Assembly: GCF_905237065.1 (NCBI RefSeq)
Contig: NC_059464.1
Span: 3,175,803 to 3,239,802 of the forward strand
Length of the DNA stretch: 64,000 nucleotides
Source: Salmo salar
Taxonomy: Eukaryota
Reading direction: 5' to 3'
The notes beneath the pieces are model-generated. The model worked only from the letters and a program-made list of their open reading frames with translations. It had not been told where the DNA came from and searched no databases. Below are positions 55,251 to 62,798 of this stretch, one piece after another (position 1 is the first letter of the stretch; every line of letters starts with the position of its first letter). The position numbers were made by a program, and so were the translations under genes.

Positions 55251-56099
55251 TTTACATCCCAGGACAAATTAGCTAGCAACAGTAAGCCAGCTAAATAGGA
55301 TGAATTAGCTAGCAAGTGCAAGCTAGCTAGCTAAATTGCCATAAATGTTTAATACTTTCCGACCTGTCCCCAAATTAATGTAATTGGTTCAGAGTTTGTT
55401 TTGATATTTTAACCTGCGTGTCGTGATCGCGTTTGGTGTGGGGGAGACAAAATAAATGTATGCACGATGGCGCACGCACGCAGCCAGTTAGGGTTCCGTG
55501 TTACCCGTGAATGTTCCAAAATGCAATTTGCCGGAAAACATAGTTCTAAAATGCGCAACGCACAGGCAAGTGGTTTCATGGACAGATAAGGAAATATTTG
55601 TTAGAAATAGGGAGGATTGAAAGATGCAACAAATTCTTCGGTTGTTAATATGATTAGGATAATGTCTTTGGCTGCTAAAACAATTAAATAAAGTTGAAAG
55701 ACAAATTGAGCAGGAGAAGGCATATGAATAAGTCTTTATAAAAATAATTGCCTCCACGTTTCTAAAGTGGGATTTTGGTTATAGGCTACTTTAAAGCAAG
55801 GTAAGATATGCCTCATAATATGAAGTAAAACGTCCAGGTTTCAAACAATTAAGGGACAGAAAAAATATAGCGAGGATAATGATAAGTCTTCTGGTAGATG
55901 AAAATAAAAAAACGTTCTCTATTAAATGTTAACTAGCTACAAAGTACTGATTATCATGATTATTGGTGTCAATCCAGTGGCCATTTATTTTGTAAACTCC
56001 ATCTCATGTGCTACAGAAACATCTCTAGTCAAGCAATAGTACTTGCACAAAATGTATTAGATTTTTCCCAGACCTCAAAAGTGGTCTCCTGATGTGGTT

Positions 56100-59000
56100 T
56101 AAGCATAGTTATGGACTTAGAACAACTTATTTTATTTCACCTTTATTTAACCAGGTAGGCCAGTTGAGAACAAGTTCTCATTTACAACTGCGACCTGGCC
56201 AAGATAAAGCAAAGCAGTGCGACAAAATCTATGTACAGTGTGTGCAAATGTAGAAGAGTCAGAAGGTAAGGCAATAAATTGGCCATAGAGGCGAATTAAT
56301 TACAATTTAGCATTAACACTGGAGTGATAGATGTGCAGATGATAATGTGCAAGTAGAGATACTGGGATGCAAAAGATCAAGAAGATAAATAACAATATGG
56401 GGATGAGGTAGTTGGGTGTGCTATTTACAGATGGGCTGTGTACACGTGCAGTGATCGGTAAGCTGCTCTTACAGCTAATGCTTAAAGTTAGGGAGGGAGA
56501 TAAGTCTCCAGCTTCAGTGATTTTTTCCAATTCGTTCCAGTCATTGGCAGCAGAGAACTGGAAGGAAAGGCAGCCAAAGGAAGTGTTGGCTTTGGGGATG
56601 ACCAGTGAAATATACCTGCTGGTGGGTGTTGCTATGGTGACCAGTGAGCTGAGATAAGGCGGGGCTTTACCTAGCAAAGACTTATAGATTACCTGCTCTG
56701 TGGGTTTGGCGCCGAATACGAAGCGAAGGCCAGCCAAAGAGAGCATACAGATTGCAGTGGTGGGTAGTATATGGGGCTTGGTGACAAAACAGATGGCTCT
56801 GTGATAGCCCCCAAACTGGATGTAGTCTATTTTGTAAATGACATCGCCGAAGTCAAGGATCGGTAGGATAGTCAGTTTTATGAGGGTATGTTTGGCAGCA
56901 TGAGTGAAGGAGGCTTTGTTGCAAAATAGGAAGCCGATTCTAGATATAATTTTGGATTGGAGATGCTTAATGTGAGTCTGGGAGTTTACAGTCTAACCAG
57001 ACACCTAGGTATTTGTAGTTGTCCACATATTCTAAGTCAGAACCGTCCAGAGTAGTGATGCTAGTCGGGCGGGCAGCAATTGGTTGAAGAGCATGCATTT
57101 AGTTTTACTAGCATTTAAAAGCAGTTGGAGGCCACGGAAGGAGTGTGGTATGGCGTTGAAGCTCGTTTGGAGGTTTGTTAGCACTGTGTCCAAAGAAGGG
57201 CCAGATGTATACATAATGGTGTCATCTGCGTAGAGGTGGATCAGAGAATCACCAGCAGCAAGAGTGACATCATTGATATTTCAGAGAAAAGAGTCGGCCT
57301 GAGAATTGAACCCTGTGGCACCCCCATAGAGACTGCCAGAGGTCCTGACAACAGGCCCTCCGATTTGACATAAGGAACTCTATCTGAGAAGTCATTTGAG
57401 AAACCAAGGCTATTGAGTCTGCAGATAAGAATGCGGTGATTGACCAAGTTGAAAGCCTTTGCCAGGTCGATGAAAACAGCTGCACAGTACTGTCTTTTAT
57501 TGATGGCGGTTATGATATCGTTTAGGACCTTGAGCGTGGCTGAGGTGCACCCATGACCAGCTCGGAAACTAGCTTGCACAGTGGAGAAGGTACGGTGAGA
57601 TTCGAAATGGTCGGTGATCTGTTAACTTGGCATTCAAATATTTTAGAAAGGCAGGGCAGGATGGATATAGGTCTATAACAGTTTGGGTCTAGAGTGTCTC
57701 CCCCTTTGAAGAGGGGGATGACAGTGGCAGCTTTCCAATCTTTGGGGATCTCAGACGATACGAAAAGAGAGGTTGAACAGGCTAGTAATAGGGGTTGCAA
57801 CAATTTCGGCAGATCATTTTAGAAAGAGAGGGTTCAGATTGTCTAGCCCAGCTGATTTGTAGGGATCCAGATTTTGCAGCTCTTGGAAAGTTGAGAGAGA
57901 GTTGTTGGCCGGGGAAGGGGTAGCCAGGTGGAAGCATGGCCAGCCATAGATAAATGCTTATTGAAATTCTCGATTATCGTTGATTTATCGGTGGTGACTG
58001 TGTTTCCTAGCGTCAGTGCAGTGGGCAGCTGGGAGTAGGTGCTCTTATTTTCCATGGACTTTACAGTGTCCCAAAACTTTTGGGAATTAGTGCTACAGGA
58101 TGTAAATTTCTGTTTGAAAAAGCTAGCCTTAGCTTTCCTAACTGACTTTGTATATTGGTTCCTGACTTCCCTGAAAAGTTGCATATCGTGGGGGCTATTC
58201 GATGCTAATGCAGAACGCCACAGGATGTTTTGTGCTGGTCAAGGGCAGTCAAGTCTGGGGTGAACCAAGGGCTAGATCTGTTCTTAGTTCTACATTTTTT
58301 GAATGGGGCATGCTTATTTAAGACGGTGAGGAAAGCCCTTTTAAAGAGCAACCAGGCATCCTCTACTGACGGGATGAGGTCAATATCCTTCCAGGATACC
58401 CGGGCCAAGTCGATTAGAAATGCCTGCTCGCTGAAGTGTTTTAGGGAGCATTTGACAGTGATGAGGGGTGGTCTTTTGACCGCAGACCCATTACGGACGC
58501 AGGCAATGAGGCAGTGATCGCTGAGATCCTGGTTGAAGACAGCAGAGGTGTATTTAGAGGGCAAGTTGGTCAGGATGATATCTAAGAGGGTGCCCATGGT
58601 TATGGATTTAGGGTTGTACCTGGTAGGTTCCTTGATAATTTGTGTGAGATTGAGGGCATCTAGCTTAGATTGTAGGACGGCCAGGGTGTTAAGCATGTCC
58701 CAGTTTAGGTCACCTAACAGTACGAACTCTGAAGACAGAAGGGGGCAATCAATTCACATATGGTGTCCAGGGCACAGCTGGGGGCCAAGGGGGGTCTATA
58801 ACCAGCGGCAACGGTGAGAGACTTGTTTCTGGAAAGGTGGATTTTAAACAGTAGAAGCTCGAATTGTTTGGGCACAGACCTGGATGGTATGACAGAACTC
58901 TGCAGGCTATCTCTGCAGTAGATTGCAATTCCGCCCTCTTTGGCAGTTCTATCTTGTCGGAAAATGTTGTAGTTGGGGGTGGAAATTTCAGGATTTTTGG

Positions 59001-59620
59001 TGGCCTTCCTAAGCCAGGATTCAGACAAGGCTAGGACATCTGGGTTGGTGGAGTGTGCTAAAGCAGTGAATAAAAAAACAAACTTAGGGAGGAGGATTCT
59101 AATGTTAACATGCATGAAACCAAGGTTTTTACGGTTACAGAAGTCAACAAATGAGAGCGCCTGAGGAATGGGAGTGGTGCTGGGGGCTGCAGGGCCTGGG
59201 TTAGTCTCTACATCACCAGAGGAGCAGAGGAGGACTAGGCTAAGGGTACGGCTAAAGGCTATAAGAACTGGTCGTCGAGTGCATTCAGAACAGAGAGAAA
59301 AGGAGCAGGTTTCTGGGCGCGTCACATCGGAAGAGCCTGTTGAAACCACCTCGGACGATTACGTCGGCAGACCAGTCGTGATGGATCGGTGGGTCTCCGT
59401 GTCGGCAGTAAAGGGTCCAGGCCAATTGGCAAAAGAGGTATTGTAGCCGAATAATTGGCTGGTGGACCTCTTCGGCTAGCCGGGAGATGGGCCTAGCTCG
59501 AGGCTAGCTCAAGGCTAACTGGTGCTCGCTTCGGGAGACATTAGCCAGGAGTAGCCACTCGGATTGCAGCTAGCTAGCTAGCTGCGATGATCCTGTGTAA
59601 AGGTTTAGAGCTTGCGGTAG
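56100..59620 (-). mobile_element. CR1/L2-like LINE, about 3.5 kb, ORF2 largely intact but frameshifted; 5' region GCTAGC-rich
   Basis: Minus-strand ORFs: 58714..59349 (2A-like peptide plus endonuclease N-terminus), 58205..58696 (endonuclease), 57522..57803 and 57241..57579 (RT: FIDLAKAFN, GVPQGSIL), 56300..56746 (RT C-terminus). The 3' tail at 56100-56300 equals a known salmonid repeat (cctttatttaaccaggtaggc...). Confidence 0.85.
58714..59349 (-). pseudogene. LINE ORF2 N-terminal segment: 2A-like peptide (GDVETNPGP) followed by the apurinic-endonuclease-like domain
   Basis: ORF 58714..59349 (-) reads ...LLCSSGDVETNPGPAAP...LALSESWL...NYNIFRQDR...GGIAIYCRD. The motif nucleotides are at about 59191-59217. 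Confidence 0.7.
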
Positions 59621-59895
59621 GAATCCGGAGATGTGGAAGAGAAAAAGCAGTCCGATATGTTCTGGGTTGATATCACGCTGTGCAGACTGGCAGGTATTGA
59701 CTGAGCTGAGGCTTGCTGGTGTCTGAGTTAACGGTGAAGACCACTAGCAGTGGCTAACTGACTACTAGCTCGTAGCTAGTTAGCCGGCTGGCTTCTGATG
59801 GGGGTTCCGGTTCTAAAGTATAAAAATAGCAGATCCGTACCACATTGGGTGAGGCGGGTTGCAGGAGAGTATATTCAGTCTGTAGATTGAAAGTG

Positions 59896-59896
<1 letters not shown>

Positions 59897-59936
<40 letters not shown>

Positions 59937-59961
59937 TACATACATATACACACACATATAC
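59897..59961. repeat. Compound (TA)n(CA)n microsatellite
   Basis: tatatatatatatatacacacacacacacacacacatacatacatatacacacacatatac. Confidence 0.9.
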
Positions 59962-60022
59962 AAAGAAACAATATTTACACGGGACAAGACAAAACACACG
60001 TCCGACTGCTACGCCATCTTGG

Positions 60023-62798
60023 AAAAAAACGGTGTATTGGGAAAGTATTCAGCCCACTCGACTTTTTCCACAATTTGTTACATTACAGCTTTATTCTAAA
60101 ATGGATTAAATTGTTTTCCCCCCACTATTAATTTACACAAAATACCCCATACAGACAAAGCAAAAACAGGTTTCGTTTTTTTTTTTTTTCACAAAATAAT
60201 GTAAAAGAAATTGAAATCTCACATTTACATAAGTATTCAGACCCTTTACTCAGCACTTTGTTTTAGCACCTTTGGCAGAGATTACAGCCTCGAGTCTTGT
60301 TGGGCATGACACTATAAGCTGTATTAGGGGAGTTTCACCCATTCTTCTCTGCAGATCCTCTCAAGCTCTGTCAGGTTGGATGGGGAGCGTCGCTGCACAG
60401 CTATTTTCAGGTATCTCCAGAGATGTTCAATTGGGTTCAAGTCTGGGCTCTGGCTGGGCCACTCAAGGACATTCAGAGACTTGTCCCGAAGCCACCCATG
60501 TGTTGTCTTGGCTGTGTGCTTAGGGTCGTTGTCCTGTTGGAAGGTGAACCTTCGCCCCCAGTCTGAGGTCCTGAGCACTCTGGAGCAGGTTTTCATCACG
60601 TACCTCTCTGTACTTTGCTACATTCATTTTTCCCTAGATCCTGACTAGTCTCCCAGTCCCTGTCTCCACAGCATGATGCTGCCACCAACATTCTTCAGTA
60701 GGGATGGTGCCAGGTTTCCTCCAGATGTGACACTTGGCATTCAGGCCAAATAGTTCAATCTTGTTTGTTATGGTCAGTCTTTTTGGTGCCTTTTGGCAAA
60801 CTCCAAGAAGGCTGTCATGTGCCTTTTACTGAGGAGTGGCTTCCGTCTGGTCAATCTACCATAAAGGCCTGATTGGTGGAGTGCTACAGAGATGGTTGTC
60901 CTTCTGGAAGGTTCTTCCATCTCCACAGAGGAAATCTGGAGCTCTGTCAGAATGACCATCGGGTTCTTGGTCAACTCCCTGACCAAGGGCCTTCTCCATT
61001 GATTTCTCCATTTAAGAATGATGGAGGCCAGTGTGTTCTTGGGGACCTTCAATGCTGCAGAAATGTTTTGGAACCCTTCCCCAGATCTGTGCCTCGACAC
61101 AATCCTGTCTTGAAGCTCTACGGACAATTCCTTCAACCTCATGGCTTGATTTTTTGCTCTGACATGCACTGTCAATTGTGGGACCTTACATATTTGTGCC
61201 TTTCCAAATCATGTCCAATCAATTGACCACAGGTGGACTCCAATCAATTTGTAGAAACATCTCAAGGACGATCAATGGAAACAGGATGCACCTGAGCTCA
61301 GTTTCAGTCTCATAGCAAAGAGTATGAATAAGGTATTTCTGTTTTTGTTTCTTTATAAATGTGCAAACATTTATTAACCAAAATTGTGTTAAAATCCATT
61401 TTATATTTGAGATTCTTCAAAGTAGCCACCCTTTGCCTTGACAGCGCTGCACACTGTTGGCATTCTCTCAACCAGCTTCATGAGGTAGTCACCTGGAATG
61501 CATTTCAATTAACAGGTGTGCCTTGTTAAAAGTTAATGTGAAATTTCTTTCCTTCTTAATGCGTTTGAGACAATCAGTTGTGTTGTGACAAGGTAGAGGG
61601 GTGTACAGAGATGGTATTTTACCAAATAGGGCTAAGTCCATATTATGGCAAGAACAGCTCAAATAAGCAAAAAGAAATGACAGTCCATTACTTTAAGACA
61701 TGGTCAGTCAATCCAGAACATTTCAAGAACTTTGAATGTTTCTTCAAGTGCAGTCGCAAAAACCATCAAGTGCTATTATGAATCTGGCTCTCATGAGGAC
61801 AGCCACAGGATTGAAAGATCCAGAGTTGCCTCTGCTGCAGAGGATAAGTTCACACATCTCAACATCAACTGTTCAGAGGAGACTGCGTGAATCAGGCCTT
61901 CATGGTCAAATTGCTGCAAAGAAACAACTACTAAAGGACACCAATAAGAAGGAGACTTTCTTGGGCCAAGAAACATGAGCAATGGACATTAGACCAGTGG
62001 AAATCTGCCCTTTAGTCTGATGAGTCCAAATTTGAGATTTTTGCTTCCAACCGCTGTATCTTTGTGAGACGCAGAGTAGGTAAACGGATTATCTCCGCAT
62101 ATGTAGTTCCCACCATGAAGCATGGATGAGGTGTGATGGTGCTTTGCTGGTGACACTGTCAATTATTTATTTAGAATTCAAGGCACACTTAACCTGCATG
62201 GCTACCACAGCATTCTTCAGCGTACACCATCCCATCTGGTTTGCGCTTAGTGGGACTCATTTGTTTTTCAACAGGACAATGACCCAACACACCTCCAGGC
62301 TATGTAAGGGCTATTTGACCAAGGAGGAGAGTGCTGCATCAAATGACCTGGCTTCCACAATCACCCAACTTCAACTGAATTGAGATGCTCTGGGATGAGT
62401 TGGATCGCAGAGTGAAGGAAAAGCAGCCAACGAGTGCCCAGCACATGTGGGAACTCCTTCAAGACTGTTGGAAAGGCATTCCAGGTGAAGCTGGTTGAGA
62501 GAATGCCAAGTGTGCAAAGCTGTCATCAAGGCAGCATAAATATAAAATATATTTCGATTTGTTTAACACTTTTTTGGTTACTACTACTTTTACCTGGTAC
62601 TGCATAATTTTTTACTAAAAATGTGGGGTTCAAAACACACCCCATGCCCCACCTGCCCTGAATGACGGGTCGCTACTGGGTATTGTGGGTAGATTGATGA
62701 GGGACATTTTTATTTAATCCATTTTAGAATAAGGATGTGACAGTGACATAACAAAATGTGGAAAAAGTCAAGAGGTCTAAATACTTTCCGAATGCACT
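60023..62798 (-). mobile_element. Tc1-like transposon (agtgcattcggaaagtattcag family), carrying a nested insertion of a second Tc1-like element
   Basis: Left IR at 60023-60140, right IR at 62690-62798 (...ctttccgaatgcactgtag). Minus-strand transposase fragments are ORFs 60324..60599 and 60774..61175. Confidence 0.8.
61400..62575 (+). mobile_element. Truncated Tc1-like element (family of 18824/28773) nested inside the 60023-62798 element
   Basis: Plus-strand transposase from about 61640, frameshifted. ORF 61736..61978 (+). Both of its own termini are missing. Confidence 0.75.

What the first reader, a model, noticed from the sequence alone, without database searches (positions are those of the whole stretch)
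59191..59217. 2A-like 'ribosome skipping' peptide (GDVETNPGP) at the N-terminus of a LINE ORF2
The LINE at 56.1-59.6 kb encodes ...LLCSSGDVETNPGP|AAP... immediately upstream of its endonuclease domain. D(V/I)ExNPGP is the canonical 2A co-translational separation motif. Here it would release an upstream peptide from the EN-RT polyprotein. 2A-like motifs have been reported in some non-LTR retrotransposons. This copy would be a concrete, testable instance in this LINE lineage.
Basis: partly seen in the sequence, partly recalled or inferred. Interest (0 to 1): 0.5.

Follow-up and report, generated by a model that had tools for sequence, protein, structure and literature searches.

The report
2A skipping peptide in fish LINE
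The GDVETNPGP motif is real and is the family-wide "2A/StopGo" ribosome-skipping peptide of a single-ORF salmonid LINE retrotransposon, a kind of arrangement already described in other animals' LINEs, but the copy in this window is a dead, untranslatable relic.

Summary
Observation confirmed. The reverse complement of window 59191-59217 encodes GDVETNPGP. It is the only NPGP in all six frames, and 7e-5 D[VI]ExNPGP matches are expected by chance.

It lies about 30 residues upstream of the endonuclease domain of a ~3.9 kb minus-strand LINE (~60026 to ~56130) in a salmonid genome.

The refutation test failed: the family consensus keeps the motif. Of 34 homologous proteins covering the site, 31 have NPGP and 3 have one-step decay forms. 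The salmonid consensus is RTLILLLLCSSGDVEVNPGP. Relatives only 39-59% identical (Perca, Oreochromis, Anarrhichthys) keep LLLLSG-N(V/I)(Q/H)xNPGP, with synonymous codon variation. Two intact relatives (1074 and 1088 aa) encode leader-2A-APE-RT as one ORF, and no ORF1 was found.

This matches the known 2A-bearing, ORF1-less APE-type LINEs (Heras 2006; Odon 2013; 2025-26 surveys that include fish).

The window copy is dead. It lacks the ATG and about 90 leader codons, and carries a 1-nt deletion 17 codons upstream of the motif, at least 5 frame changes and several stops.

Likely role in active copies: co-translational release of a ~130-aa hydrophobic leader and/or throttling of ORF2p output. Activity is untested. 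Verdict: a new member of a known kind, of modest interest.

The parts
59191..59217 (-). GDVETNPGP: the G plus the core octapeptide D-V-E-x-N-P-G|P of a class-A 2A/StopGo peptide. The predicted skip lies between the Gly codon GGC (59194-59196) and the Pro codon CCT (59191-59193).
   Evidence: Direct translation. It is the only NPGP in six frames, with 6.6e-5 expected by chance. The family consensus is GDVEVNPGP.
59218..59250 (-). Hydrophobic, Leu-rich upstream context (SRTLSLVLLCS, positions -19 to -9, plus flank). It corresponds to the exit-tunnel helix of 2A peptides. The family consensus is RTLILLLLCSS.
   Evidence: Positions -19..-10 hold 4 Leu in the window copy and 5 in the consensus. The AlphaFold model of homolog P0012 puts a helix at 101-122 that ends at position -10, followed by a loop to the skip site. 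The block is conserved in the alignment.
59251..59331 (-). Remnant of the C-terminal part of the leader coding region. A 1-nt deletion about 17 codons upstream of the motif shifts the frame. There is no in-frame ATG.
   Evidence: DNA alignment with three other copies and three-frame translation.
59332..60026 (-). LINE 5' region (5'UTR). The 5' terminus reads CCAAGATGGCGTAGCAGTC. Two internal deletions (at about 59331 and about 59455) removed the start codon and about 90 leader codons. It contains an (AC)n microsatellite at 59914-59956.
   Evidence: blastn and MAFFT against L001-L003; Tandem Repeats Finder.
58450..59130 (-). Apurinic/apyrimidinic-type endonuclease (APE) domain, split by one frameshift near 58745.
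   Evidence: Pfam Exo_endo_phos on the window ORF. tblastn of intact relative P0106 residues 85-442. Pfam boundaries in P0106 and P0012.
56990..57700 (-). Reverse-transcriptase domain (includes YADD), with frameshifts and in-frame stops.
   Evidence: Pfam RVT_1, E=8e-10. tblastn of P0106 residues 567-1060, with 6 and 3 stops inside the two HSPs.
56125..56215 (-). LINE 3' end: a ~70-nt conserved tail forming a stem-loop, followed by AAATAAAATAA. It is the presumed recognition element for the element's reverse transcriptase.
   Evidence: RNA fold gives -27 kcal/mol, z = -3.3. The tail is 97% identical to that of the Coregonus copy, against 86% for the body.

Best explanation
The motif is the conserved class-A 2A (StopGo, 'ribosome skipping') peptide of a single-ORF, ORF1-less APE-type LINE family of salmonid fishes. 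Relatives occur across teleosts. In an intact element the one ORF encodes four parts in order. First comes a ~107-139-residue poorly conserved leader, usually with a hydrophobic N-terminal segment. Second is a Leu-rich helix plus SG(D/N)(V/I)xxNPG|P. Third is a ~30-residue linker, and last the endonuclease-RT protein. When the ribosome reaches NPG-P, the nascent helix in the exit tunnel is expected to prevent formation of the Gly-Pro bond. The leader would then be released with ...NPG at its C-terminus, and translation would continue (with less than full efficiency) to give an endonuclease-RT protein that starts with Pro. The likely benefit to the element is twofold: removal of the leader, and throttling of the amount of endonuclease-RT made, standing in for the down-regulation that an upstream ORF1 normally imposes. 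Shown here: the motif, its family-wide and cross-teleost conservation at the protein level, its position, the single-ORF architecture and the helix-then-loop context. Inferred: actual skipping, its efficiency and its biological role. The copy in this window is an old, inactive insertion in which the peptide can no longer be made.
For: The motif is exact and far beyond chance. It is conserved in 31/34 and 16/20 homologs that cover the site; the misses are one-step decay variants. In an alignment of 15 N-termini only 29-75% identical overall, the only invariant leader columns are S, G and N-P-G-P, next to a hydrophobic block. NPGP is encoded by AAT/AAC, CCA, GGA/GGC/GGT/GGG and CCT/CCC/CCA in 9 loci, so conservation is at the amino-acid level and not the nucleotide level. 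Intact 1088-aa and 1074-aa relatives have leader-2A-APE-RT in one ORF. No conserved second ORF lies in the ~0.8-0.9 kb (about 770-940 nt) between the 5' terminus and the main-ORF ATG of three salmonid copies. There are 4-5 Leu at positions -19..-10, and the predicted helix ends at -10. These are the features reported for active eukaryotic 2A-like peptides (PMC13405545), for class A peptides (PMC12338488) and for the 'LLLLSG-like' upstream motif (PMC12846837). The architecture and the link to ORF1 loss match Odon et al. 2013 (PMC3708506), and the down-regulation idea matches Luke et al. 2013 (PMC3894237).
Against: No translation assay exists for this peptide. Odon et al. found that several LINE peptides with a good core motif were weak or inactive because of their upstream context. 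Snell and Matreyek (PMC13405545) report that peptides with 3-6 Leu upstream often give reduced protein abundance rather than clean skipping. Most non-salmonid relatives carry N for D and Q/H for E together. Each change is tolerated singly in viral contexts (PMC12846837), but the pair is untested, so the ancestral peptide may be only weakly active. The leader is 107-139 aa, longer than the 40-80 aa reported by Odon et al., and its function is unknown. I found no fully intact salmonid copy; the longest open salmonid product is 628-635 aa.
Confidence: 0.8

Rival explanations
1. The peptide is conserved mainly as a translational brake, a Leu-rich 'stall helix' that lowers output of the endonuclease-RT protein (or triggers quality control). 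Little or no productive separation of two proteins occurs.
For: There are 4 Leu (window) or 5 Leu (consensus), and up to 7 in relatives, at positions -19..-10. PMC13405545 reports that 3-6 Leu in this stretch go with reduced protein abundance, and that 59% of the ORF2p-associated 2A-like peptides tested fell in a reduction class. PMC3894237 argues that down-regulation of ORF2p is the point of 2A in ORF1-less LINEs.
Against: The salmonid core GDVEVNPGP is fully canonical, and NPGP is invariant, which is what skipping specifically requires. Reduction and skipping share the same sequence features and are not exclusive. The assays in PMC13405545 were done in human cells with 20-residue inserts.
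Confidence: 0.3
2. The conserved hydrophobic stretch is primarily a membrane anchor or signal-type targeting element of the leader. Together with the hydrophobic N-terminal segment it would give dual targeting, as described for N-terminal 2A-like signal sequences. Recoding would be secondary.
For: A hydrophobic segment lies within the first ~25 residues in 12 of 14 diverse family members, and a second one lies directly before the motif. PMC4981915 shows that a 2A-like sequence can act as a signal sequence.
Against: A membrane anchor does not explain the invariant SG...NPGP directly after the helix. No signal-peptide predictor or translocation assay was available. The leader model has low confidence. 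A retrotransposon enzyme has no known need for ER targeting.
Confidence: 0.07
3. The motif is a chance occurrence private to this copy.
For: NPGP alone is expected 0.7 times per window. The T at the x position is private to this copy.
Against: The full motif is expected 7e-5 times per window. It is present in the family consensus and in distant relatives.
Confidence: 0.01
4. The sequence is a fragment of an RNA virus (for example picornavirus-like) polyprotein integrated in the genome.
For: GDVETNPGP and GDVEVNPGP also occur in picornavirus and dicistrovirus 2A peptides (PMC8623073).
Against: The flanks are a LINE leader and an APE-RT body, with the LINE's 5' and 3' termini shared with other copies. 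There are no viral domains.
Confidence: 0.01

Closest known systems
[quoted passage not shown] 2006; Rex1, L2, L2A, Crack and CR1 elements of sea urchin, amphioxus, molluscs, Xenopus and Nematostella, Odon et al. 2013, PMC3708506)
   Same: The GD(V/I)ExNPGP peptide sits in the N-terminal region of the APE-RT protein, upstream of the endonuclease domain. The elements lack an ORF1. The glutamate position varies among relatives (E to Q/H/N/K).
   Different: The host is a teleost (salmonid), a group not listed by Odon et al. The leader is 107-139 aa rather than 40-80 aa and usually begins with a hydrophobic segment. The clade of this LINE was not determined here, and activity was not assayed.
Class A 2A/StopGo peptides of RNA viruses (F2A, T2A, P2A, E2A) and the 'LLLLSG-like' or L-rich upstream motif group (PMC12338488, PMC12846837)
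   Same: The core octapeptide, the preceding Gly and a Leu-rich helical upstream stretch that ends about 10 residues before the skip site.
   Different: It is encoded by a cellular retrotransposon. It has more Leu than typical viral peptides (4-5, against 1-3 reported for viruses in PMC13405545). It separates a short leader from an enzyme, not capsid from replicase.
ORF2p-associated 2A-like peptide clusters 'from algae to fish' and non-LTR-like contigs from fish datasets in recent surveys (PMC13405545; bioRxiv 10.64898/2026.09.24.754024)
   Same: The same architecture (2A before the APE domain) in fish. This family may be among the catalogued sequences, because O. mykiss and O. keta proteins carrying it are in UniProt and NCBI.
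   Different: No paper in the searchable library names the salmonid peptide or a LINE bearing GDVEVNPGP. The only GDVEVNPGP hit is a tortoise picornavirus. Supplementary tables were not available to check.
RSg-1 LINE of salmonids, partner of the HpaI, SlmI and OS-SINE1 SINEs (PMC3747384, PMC5135761, PMC3272025)
   Same: A salmonid LINE with a ~70-nt strongly conserved 3' tail that forms a stem-loop, as expected for 'stringent' 3'-end recognition.
   Different: Identity with RSg-1 rests on my recollection of the tail sequence. No RSg-1 or SINE reference sequence was available to align.

Membership tests
Class A 2A / StopGo peptide | Core octapeptide D(V/I)ExNPGP, usually preceded by G | tested here: met
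   GDVETNPGP at window 59217-59191, minus strand. The family consensus is GDVEVNPGP.
Class A 2A / StopGo peptide | Suitable upstream context: a hydrophobic, Leu-rich, helix-prone stretch at about -19 to -10, followed by a loop to the skip site | tested here: met
   The stretch is RTLSLVLLCS in the window (4 Leu) and RTLILLLLCS in the consensus (5 Leu). In the AlphaFold2 model of P0012, helix 101-122 ends at -10 and residues 123-145 are loop.
Class A 2A / StopGo peptide | Lies in frame inside a translated eukaryotic ORF | tested here: not met
   For this copy it is not met. There is no in-frame ATG between the upstream stop and the motif. The ATG and about 90 codons are deleted, and a 1-nt deletion lies 17 codons upstream. 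For the family it is met: intact ORFs P0106 and P0112.
Class A 2A / StopGo peptide | Conserved under selection in the lineage that carries it | tested here: met
   31/34 and 16/20 homologs keep NPGP. The columns are invariant across 29-75% identical proteins, and codons differ synonymously.
Class A 2A / StopGo peptide | Produces two separate polypeptides during translation (Gly-Pro bond skipped) | not testable with these tools
   This needs a reporter translation assay or N-terminal sequencing.
2A-bearing APE-type non-LTR retrotransposons (Odon et al. 2013) | APE endonuclease and RT encoded in one protein, with the 2A in its N-terminal region upstream of APE | tested here: met
   Pfam Exo_endo_phos and RVT_1. 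The 2A ends 29-34 residues before the APE domain. The distance from the N-terminus is 107-139 aa, longer than the 40-80 aa described.
2A-bearing APE-type non-LTR retrotransposons (Odon et al. 2013) | No ORF1 (the majority pattern) | tested here: met
   Only short, non-homologous ATG ORFs (43-84 aa) lie in the 5' regions of L001-L003. The main ORF starts about 60-290 nt from the contig start in L005, L007 and L008. The sample of copies is small.
2A-bearing APE-type non-LTR retrotransposons (Odon et al. 2013) | RT phylogeny places the element in the Rex1, L2, L2A, Crack, CR1 or Ingi clade | not tested
   No reference RT set (Repbase RTclass1) was available, and the paper's supplement is not held.
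RSg-1 / L2-type 'stringent' LINE | Conserved 3' tail with a stem-loop and short terminal repeats, shared with partner SINEs | tested here: inconclusive
   The stem-loop (-27 kcal/mol, z -3.3) and the 97%-conserved ~70-nt tail are present. Sharing with HpaI, SlmI or OS-SINE1 could not be checked, because there are no SINE sequences in the window or in the available collections.

The most novel reading that the evidence does not exclude
In this teleost LINE group the 2A may not merely trim a spacer. It may separate a conserved-in-form leader from the nuclear endonuclease-RT. The leader has a signal-peptide-like hydrophobic N-terminus, a GLP-containing middle and a Leu-rich C-terminal helix. Under this reading the leader is a small membrane- or ER-directed protein, or it localises the translating LINE mRNA to the ER, and it functionally replaces ORF1p. 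The widespread N-V-(Q/H)-x-NPGP double variant would then be a tuned low-efficiency version, and the salmonid lineage would have re-evolved the canonical high-efficiency core.
Probability: 0.12. Interest if true: 0.6.

Novelty: new member of a known kind. Interest (0 to 1): 0.3.

Why it matters
The finding adds a well-supported vertebrate (teleost and salmonid) LINE family to the list of retrotransposons that use viral-type StopGo recoding. The family has a canonical core in salmonids and a conserved non-canonical double variant (N at p12, Q/H at p14) in other fishes. That natural series could be used to test how the core and the Leu-rich helix set the balance between skipping and reduced output, and how ORF1-less LINEs control endonuclease-RT dosage. 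It also explains why annotated salmonid 'genes' contain 2A motifs. It does not change the current picture, because 2A in APE-type LINEs has been known since 2006/2013 and recent surveys already mention fish.

Tried and rejected
1. Other copies in the window: blastn of the element against the whole window found only itself, so the family had to be studied through external homologs.
2. Clade assignment: Pfam gives only RVT_1 and Exo_endo_phos. The Odon et al. supplement is not held. A literature search for the 3' tail sequence found nothing. Source names are generic. The clade is left open.
3. Whether the salmonid peptide was already catalogued or tested: the supplements of PMC13405545 and PMC12338488 are not held. 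The full-text search for GDVEVNPGP and related strings found only virus tables.
4. I first read the 70-nt match at L003 11071-11140 as a SINE sharing the LINE tail. ARAGORN and Rfam found no tRNA-like head. Reading the sequence showed it is the same LINE's own 3' end, displaced by a ~1.5 kb insertion.
5. Leader identity: there are no Pfam domains. The AlphaFold2 model of the leader has low confidence, with pLDDT 30-60 outside the pre-2A helix, so no fold search was run.
6. Rejected: chance motif, viral insertion, and a nucleotide-level (not peptide) constraint. The last is excluded by synonymous codon variation.

Full report
**1. The observation.**
The reverse complement of window 59191-59217 is GGT GAT GTA GAG ACT AAC CCA GGC CCT, which encodes GDVETNPGP. 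The motif is therefore on the minus strand. Its context is ...RRPVLIAFSRTLSLVLLCSSGDVETNPGP|AAPSTTPIPQALSFVDFCNRKNLGFMHVNIR... It is the only NPGP in the six-frame translation of the 64-kb window. From the window's own six-frame amino-acid frequencies, the expected counts are 0.70 for NPGP, 6.6e-5 for D[VI]ExNPGP and 3.5e-6 for GD[VI]ExNPGP.

**2. What surrounds it.**
- The downstream minus-strand ORF fragments match Pfam Exo_endo_phos and RVT_1.
- Homologs come from Oncorhynchus, Salvelinus, Coregonus and Hucho, so the window is salmonid DNA.
- Three other genomic copies were aligned: L001 from Salvelinus, L002 from O. mykiss and L003 from Coregonus.
- That alignment places the element's 5' terminus (CCAAGATGGCGTAGCAGTC) at about window 60026 and its 3' end at about 56130.
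- The 3' ~70 nt are 97% identical to the Coregonus copy, against about 86% for the body. They fold into a stem-loop (-27 kcal/mol, z = -3.3) followed by AAATAAAATAA.
- The literature describes a ~70-bp tail shared by the salmonid RSg-1 LINE and the HpaI, SlmI and OS-SINE1 SINEs (PMC3272025, PMC5135761, PMC3747384). I suspect this is that family, but I could not align a reference, so the family name and the clade (probably the L2/CR1 group) remain untested.
- No other copy of the element lies in the window.

**3. This copy is dead.**
- Relative to the three other copies, it has two internal 5' deletions, at about 59331 and about 59455. These removed the start codon and about 90 leader codons.
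- A 1-nt deletion lies 17 codons upstream of the motif.
- There is no in-frame ATG between the upstream stop and the motif.
- tblastn with an intact relative needs five frame changes across the body. The RT-region alignments contain 6 and 3 stops.
- The motif here cannot be translated. It is a fossil of the family's coding sequence. Its T at the variable x position is private; the consensus has V (GTT, against ACT in the window).

**4. The family consensus.**
- In the first protein search, 34 homologs cover the site. Of these, 31 have NPGP and 3 have NPGH or NPGL.
- The salmonid consensus is (R)PVLIAFSRTLILLLLCSSGDVEVNPGPAVPSSTP.
- Relatives only 39-59% identical keep a Leu-rich block followed by SGN(V/I)(H/Q/K/N)xNPGP.
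- A second search seeded with such a relative added Perca fluviatilis, Oreochromis niloticus and many unnamed assemblies. Of 20 that reach the site, 16 have NPGP, and the rest show decay forms such as NPSP and NPCL.
- In an alignment of 15 N-termini, the only invariant columns upstream of the endonuclease domain are S, G, N, P, G and P, next to a conserved hydrophobic block. The rest of the leader is barely alignable.
- Across nine loci, NPGP is written AAT/AAC, CCA, GGA/GGC/GGT/GGG and CCT/CCC/CCA. The constraint is therefore on the peptide and not on the DNA or RNA.

**5. Architecture.**
- Two intact relatives, P0106 (1088 aa) and P0112 (1074 aa), encode one ORF. It comprises a leader (114 and 107 residues up to the Gly), the 2A-like peptide, the APE domain (Pfam 149-347 in P0106) and the RT domain (649-889).
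- The 2A ends 29-34 residues before the APE domain.
- Three salmonid copies have about 0.8-0.9 kb between the 5' terminus and the ATG. This stretch holds only short, unrelated ORFs, so there is no ORF1.
- The leader has no Pfam domain.
- In 12 of 14 diverse members, the leader starts with a hydrophobic segment that looks like a signal peptide.
- In an AlphaFold2 model of P0012, the leader has low confidence except for a helix at 101-122. That helix ends exactly at position -10 relative to the skip site and is followed by a loop containing GDIEVNPGP. The APE domain is confidently folded.

**6. Mechanism.**
The features match what is described for active 2A/StopGo peptides:
- the core octapeptide and the preceding Gly;
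- a Leu-rich stretch that is helical from about -19 to -10, followed by a 10-residue loop (PMC13405545);
- 'class A' peptides (PMC12338488);
- the 'LLLLSG-like' upstream motif group (PMC12846837).

The cryo-EM work in PMC12846837 explains the chemistry. The nascent chain in the exit tunnel distorts the peptidyl-transferase centre, so the Gly-tRNA ester is hydrolysed instead of being attacked by Pro-tRNA, and translation continues from Pro.

Applied here, an active element would release a ~130-aa leader ending in ...NPG and then make an APE-RT protein beginning PA(V/A)PS... For ORF1-less LINEs, Odon et al. (PMC3708506) and Luke et al. (PMC3894237) proposed that 2A replaces ORF1 as the device that limits ORF2p output.

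Snell and Matreyek (PMC13405545) found that eukaryotic peptides with 3-6 Leu at -19..-10 often lower protein abundance, and that 59% of the ORF2p-associated peptides they tested did so. This family has 4-5 Leu in salmonids and up to 7 in relatives. I therefore regard skipping plus throttling as the most likely function. A stall-only role is the main rival. None of this has been assayed for this peptide, and Odon et al. showed that motif-bearing LINE peptides can be inactive.

**7. Variation worth noting.**
Salmonids carry the canonical D-V-E core. Most other teleost relatives carry N at p12 together with Q or H at p14. PMC12846837 shows that p12 = N and p14 = H are each over 95% active in natural viral contexts, and Odon et al. 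found that E to Q retains activity. The double variant is untested. Either the ancestral fish peptide is a tuned, weaker version, or the upstream LLLLSG context compensates.

**8. Comparison with what is known, and novelty.**
2A-like peptides at the N-terminus of the APE-RT protein of non-LTR retrotransposons have been reported as follows:
- L1Tc and Ingi (Heras 2006, cited in PMC3708506);
- Rex1, L2, L2A, Crack and CR1 elements of invertebrates and Xenopus (PMC3708506);
- recent surveys that report ORF2p-associated clusters 'from algae to fish' (PMC13405545);
- hundreds of non-LTR-like contigs, including contigs from fish datasets (bioRxiv 10.64898/2026.09.24.754024).

I found no paper that names the salmonid peptide, and the relevant supplementary tables could not be checked. 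This is a new, well-documented member of a known kind. The only less familiar aspects are the long leader that begins with a hydrophobic segment and the conserved double-variant core in non-salmonid fishes.

**9. Verdict.**
This copy is a non-functional relic, the element has a single ORF, and activity is inferred rather than shown. Interest is modest (0.3).

Noticed in passing
window 60324-61175 (minus strand): Remnants of a Tc1/Sleeping-Beauty-like DNA transposon transposase (Pfam DDE_3, HTH_SB, HTH_Tnp_Tc3_2) lie directly beside the 5' end of the LINE.
   Followed up: no
window 59914-59956: An (AC)n microsatellite of about 21 units has expanded inside the LINE 5'UTR. It is not present in the other copies aligned.
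   Followed up: partly
window 56130-56199 (minus strand); L003 11071-11140: The ~70-nt 3' tail of the LINE is 97% identical between this copy and a Coregonus copy, while the body is about 86% identical. It folds into a stem-loop. It is probably the tail reported as shared by the RSg-1 LINE and the HpaI, SlmI and OS-SINE1 SINEs, but no reference was available.
   Followed up: partly
Homologs P0025, P0034-P0037, P0050, P0106, P0112, P0125, P0129 and others: Non-salmonid teleost relatives conserve a double-variant core, LLLLSG-N-(V/I)-(Q/H)-x-NPGP (Asn for Asp and Gln/His for Glu). Salmonids have the canonical GDVEVNPGP. The activity of the double variant is unknown.
   Followed up: partly
Leader of the family (for example P0074 residues 16-30, P0012 8-22, P0025 11-24). 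Deleted from the window copy; it would lie near 59331.: The ~107-139-aa leader released by the 2A begins with a signal-peptide-like hydrophobic segment in 12 of 14 diverse members and has a small conserved G-L-P motif. It has no Pfam domain, and the AlphaFold model has low confidence.
   Followed up: partly
Nine loci (window, L001-L008) at the NPGP codons: The first Pro codon of NPGP is CCA in all nine loci, while the Asn, Gly and second Pro codons vary synonymously. The sample is small, so this may be ancestry and not codon constraint.
   Followed up: no
Proteins P0053, P0075, P0091, P0096, P0097, P0100, P0101, P0103, P0105: Public gene models in salmonids fuse fragments of this LINE to host genes such as CNG channel, TRIM35-like, globin, CaMK1 and WIPI2. 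In P0075 the fused fragment includes the leader and the 2A. These are probably annotation chimeras or exonised fragments.
   Followed up: no
window 56001-60000: GC skew is strongly positive (+0.22 to +0.26) on the plus strand across the LINE, compared with about 0 in its neighbours. This reflects the strand-asymmetric composition of the element.
   Followed up: no
L003 9480-11000: The Coregonus copy of the LINE is interrupted near its 3' end by an insertion of about 1.5 kb, so its conserved tail lies 1.5 kb downstream of the body.
   Followed up: partly
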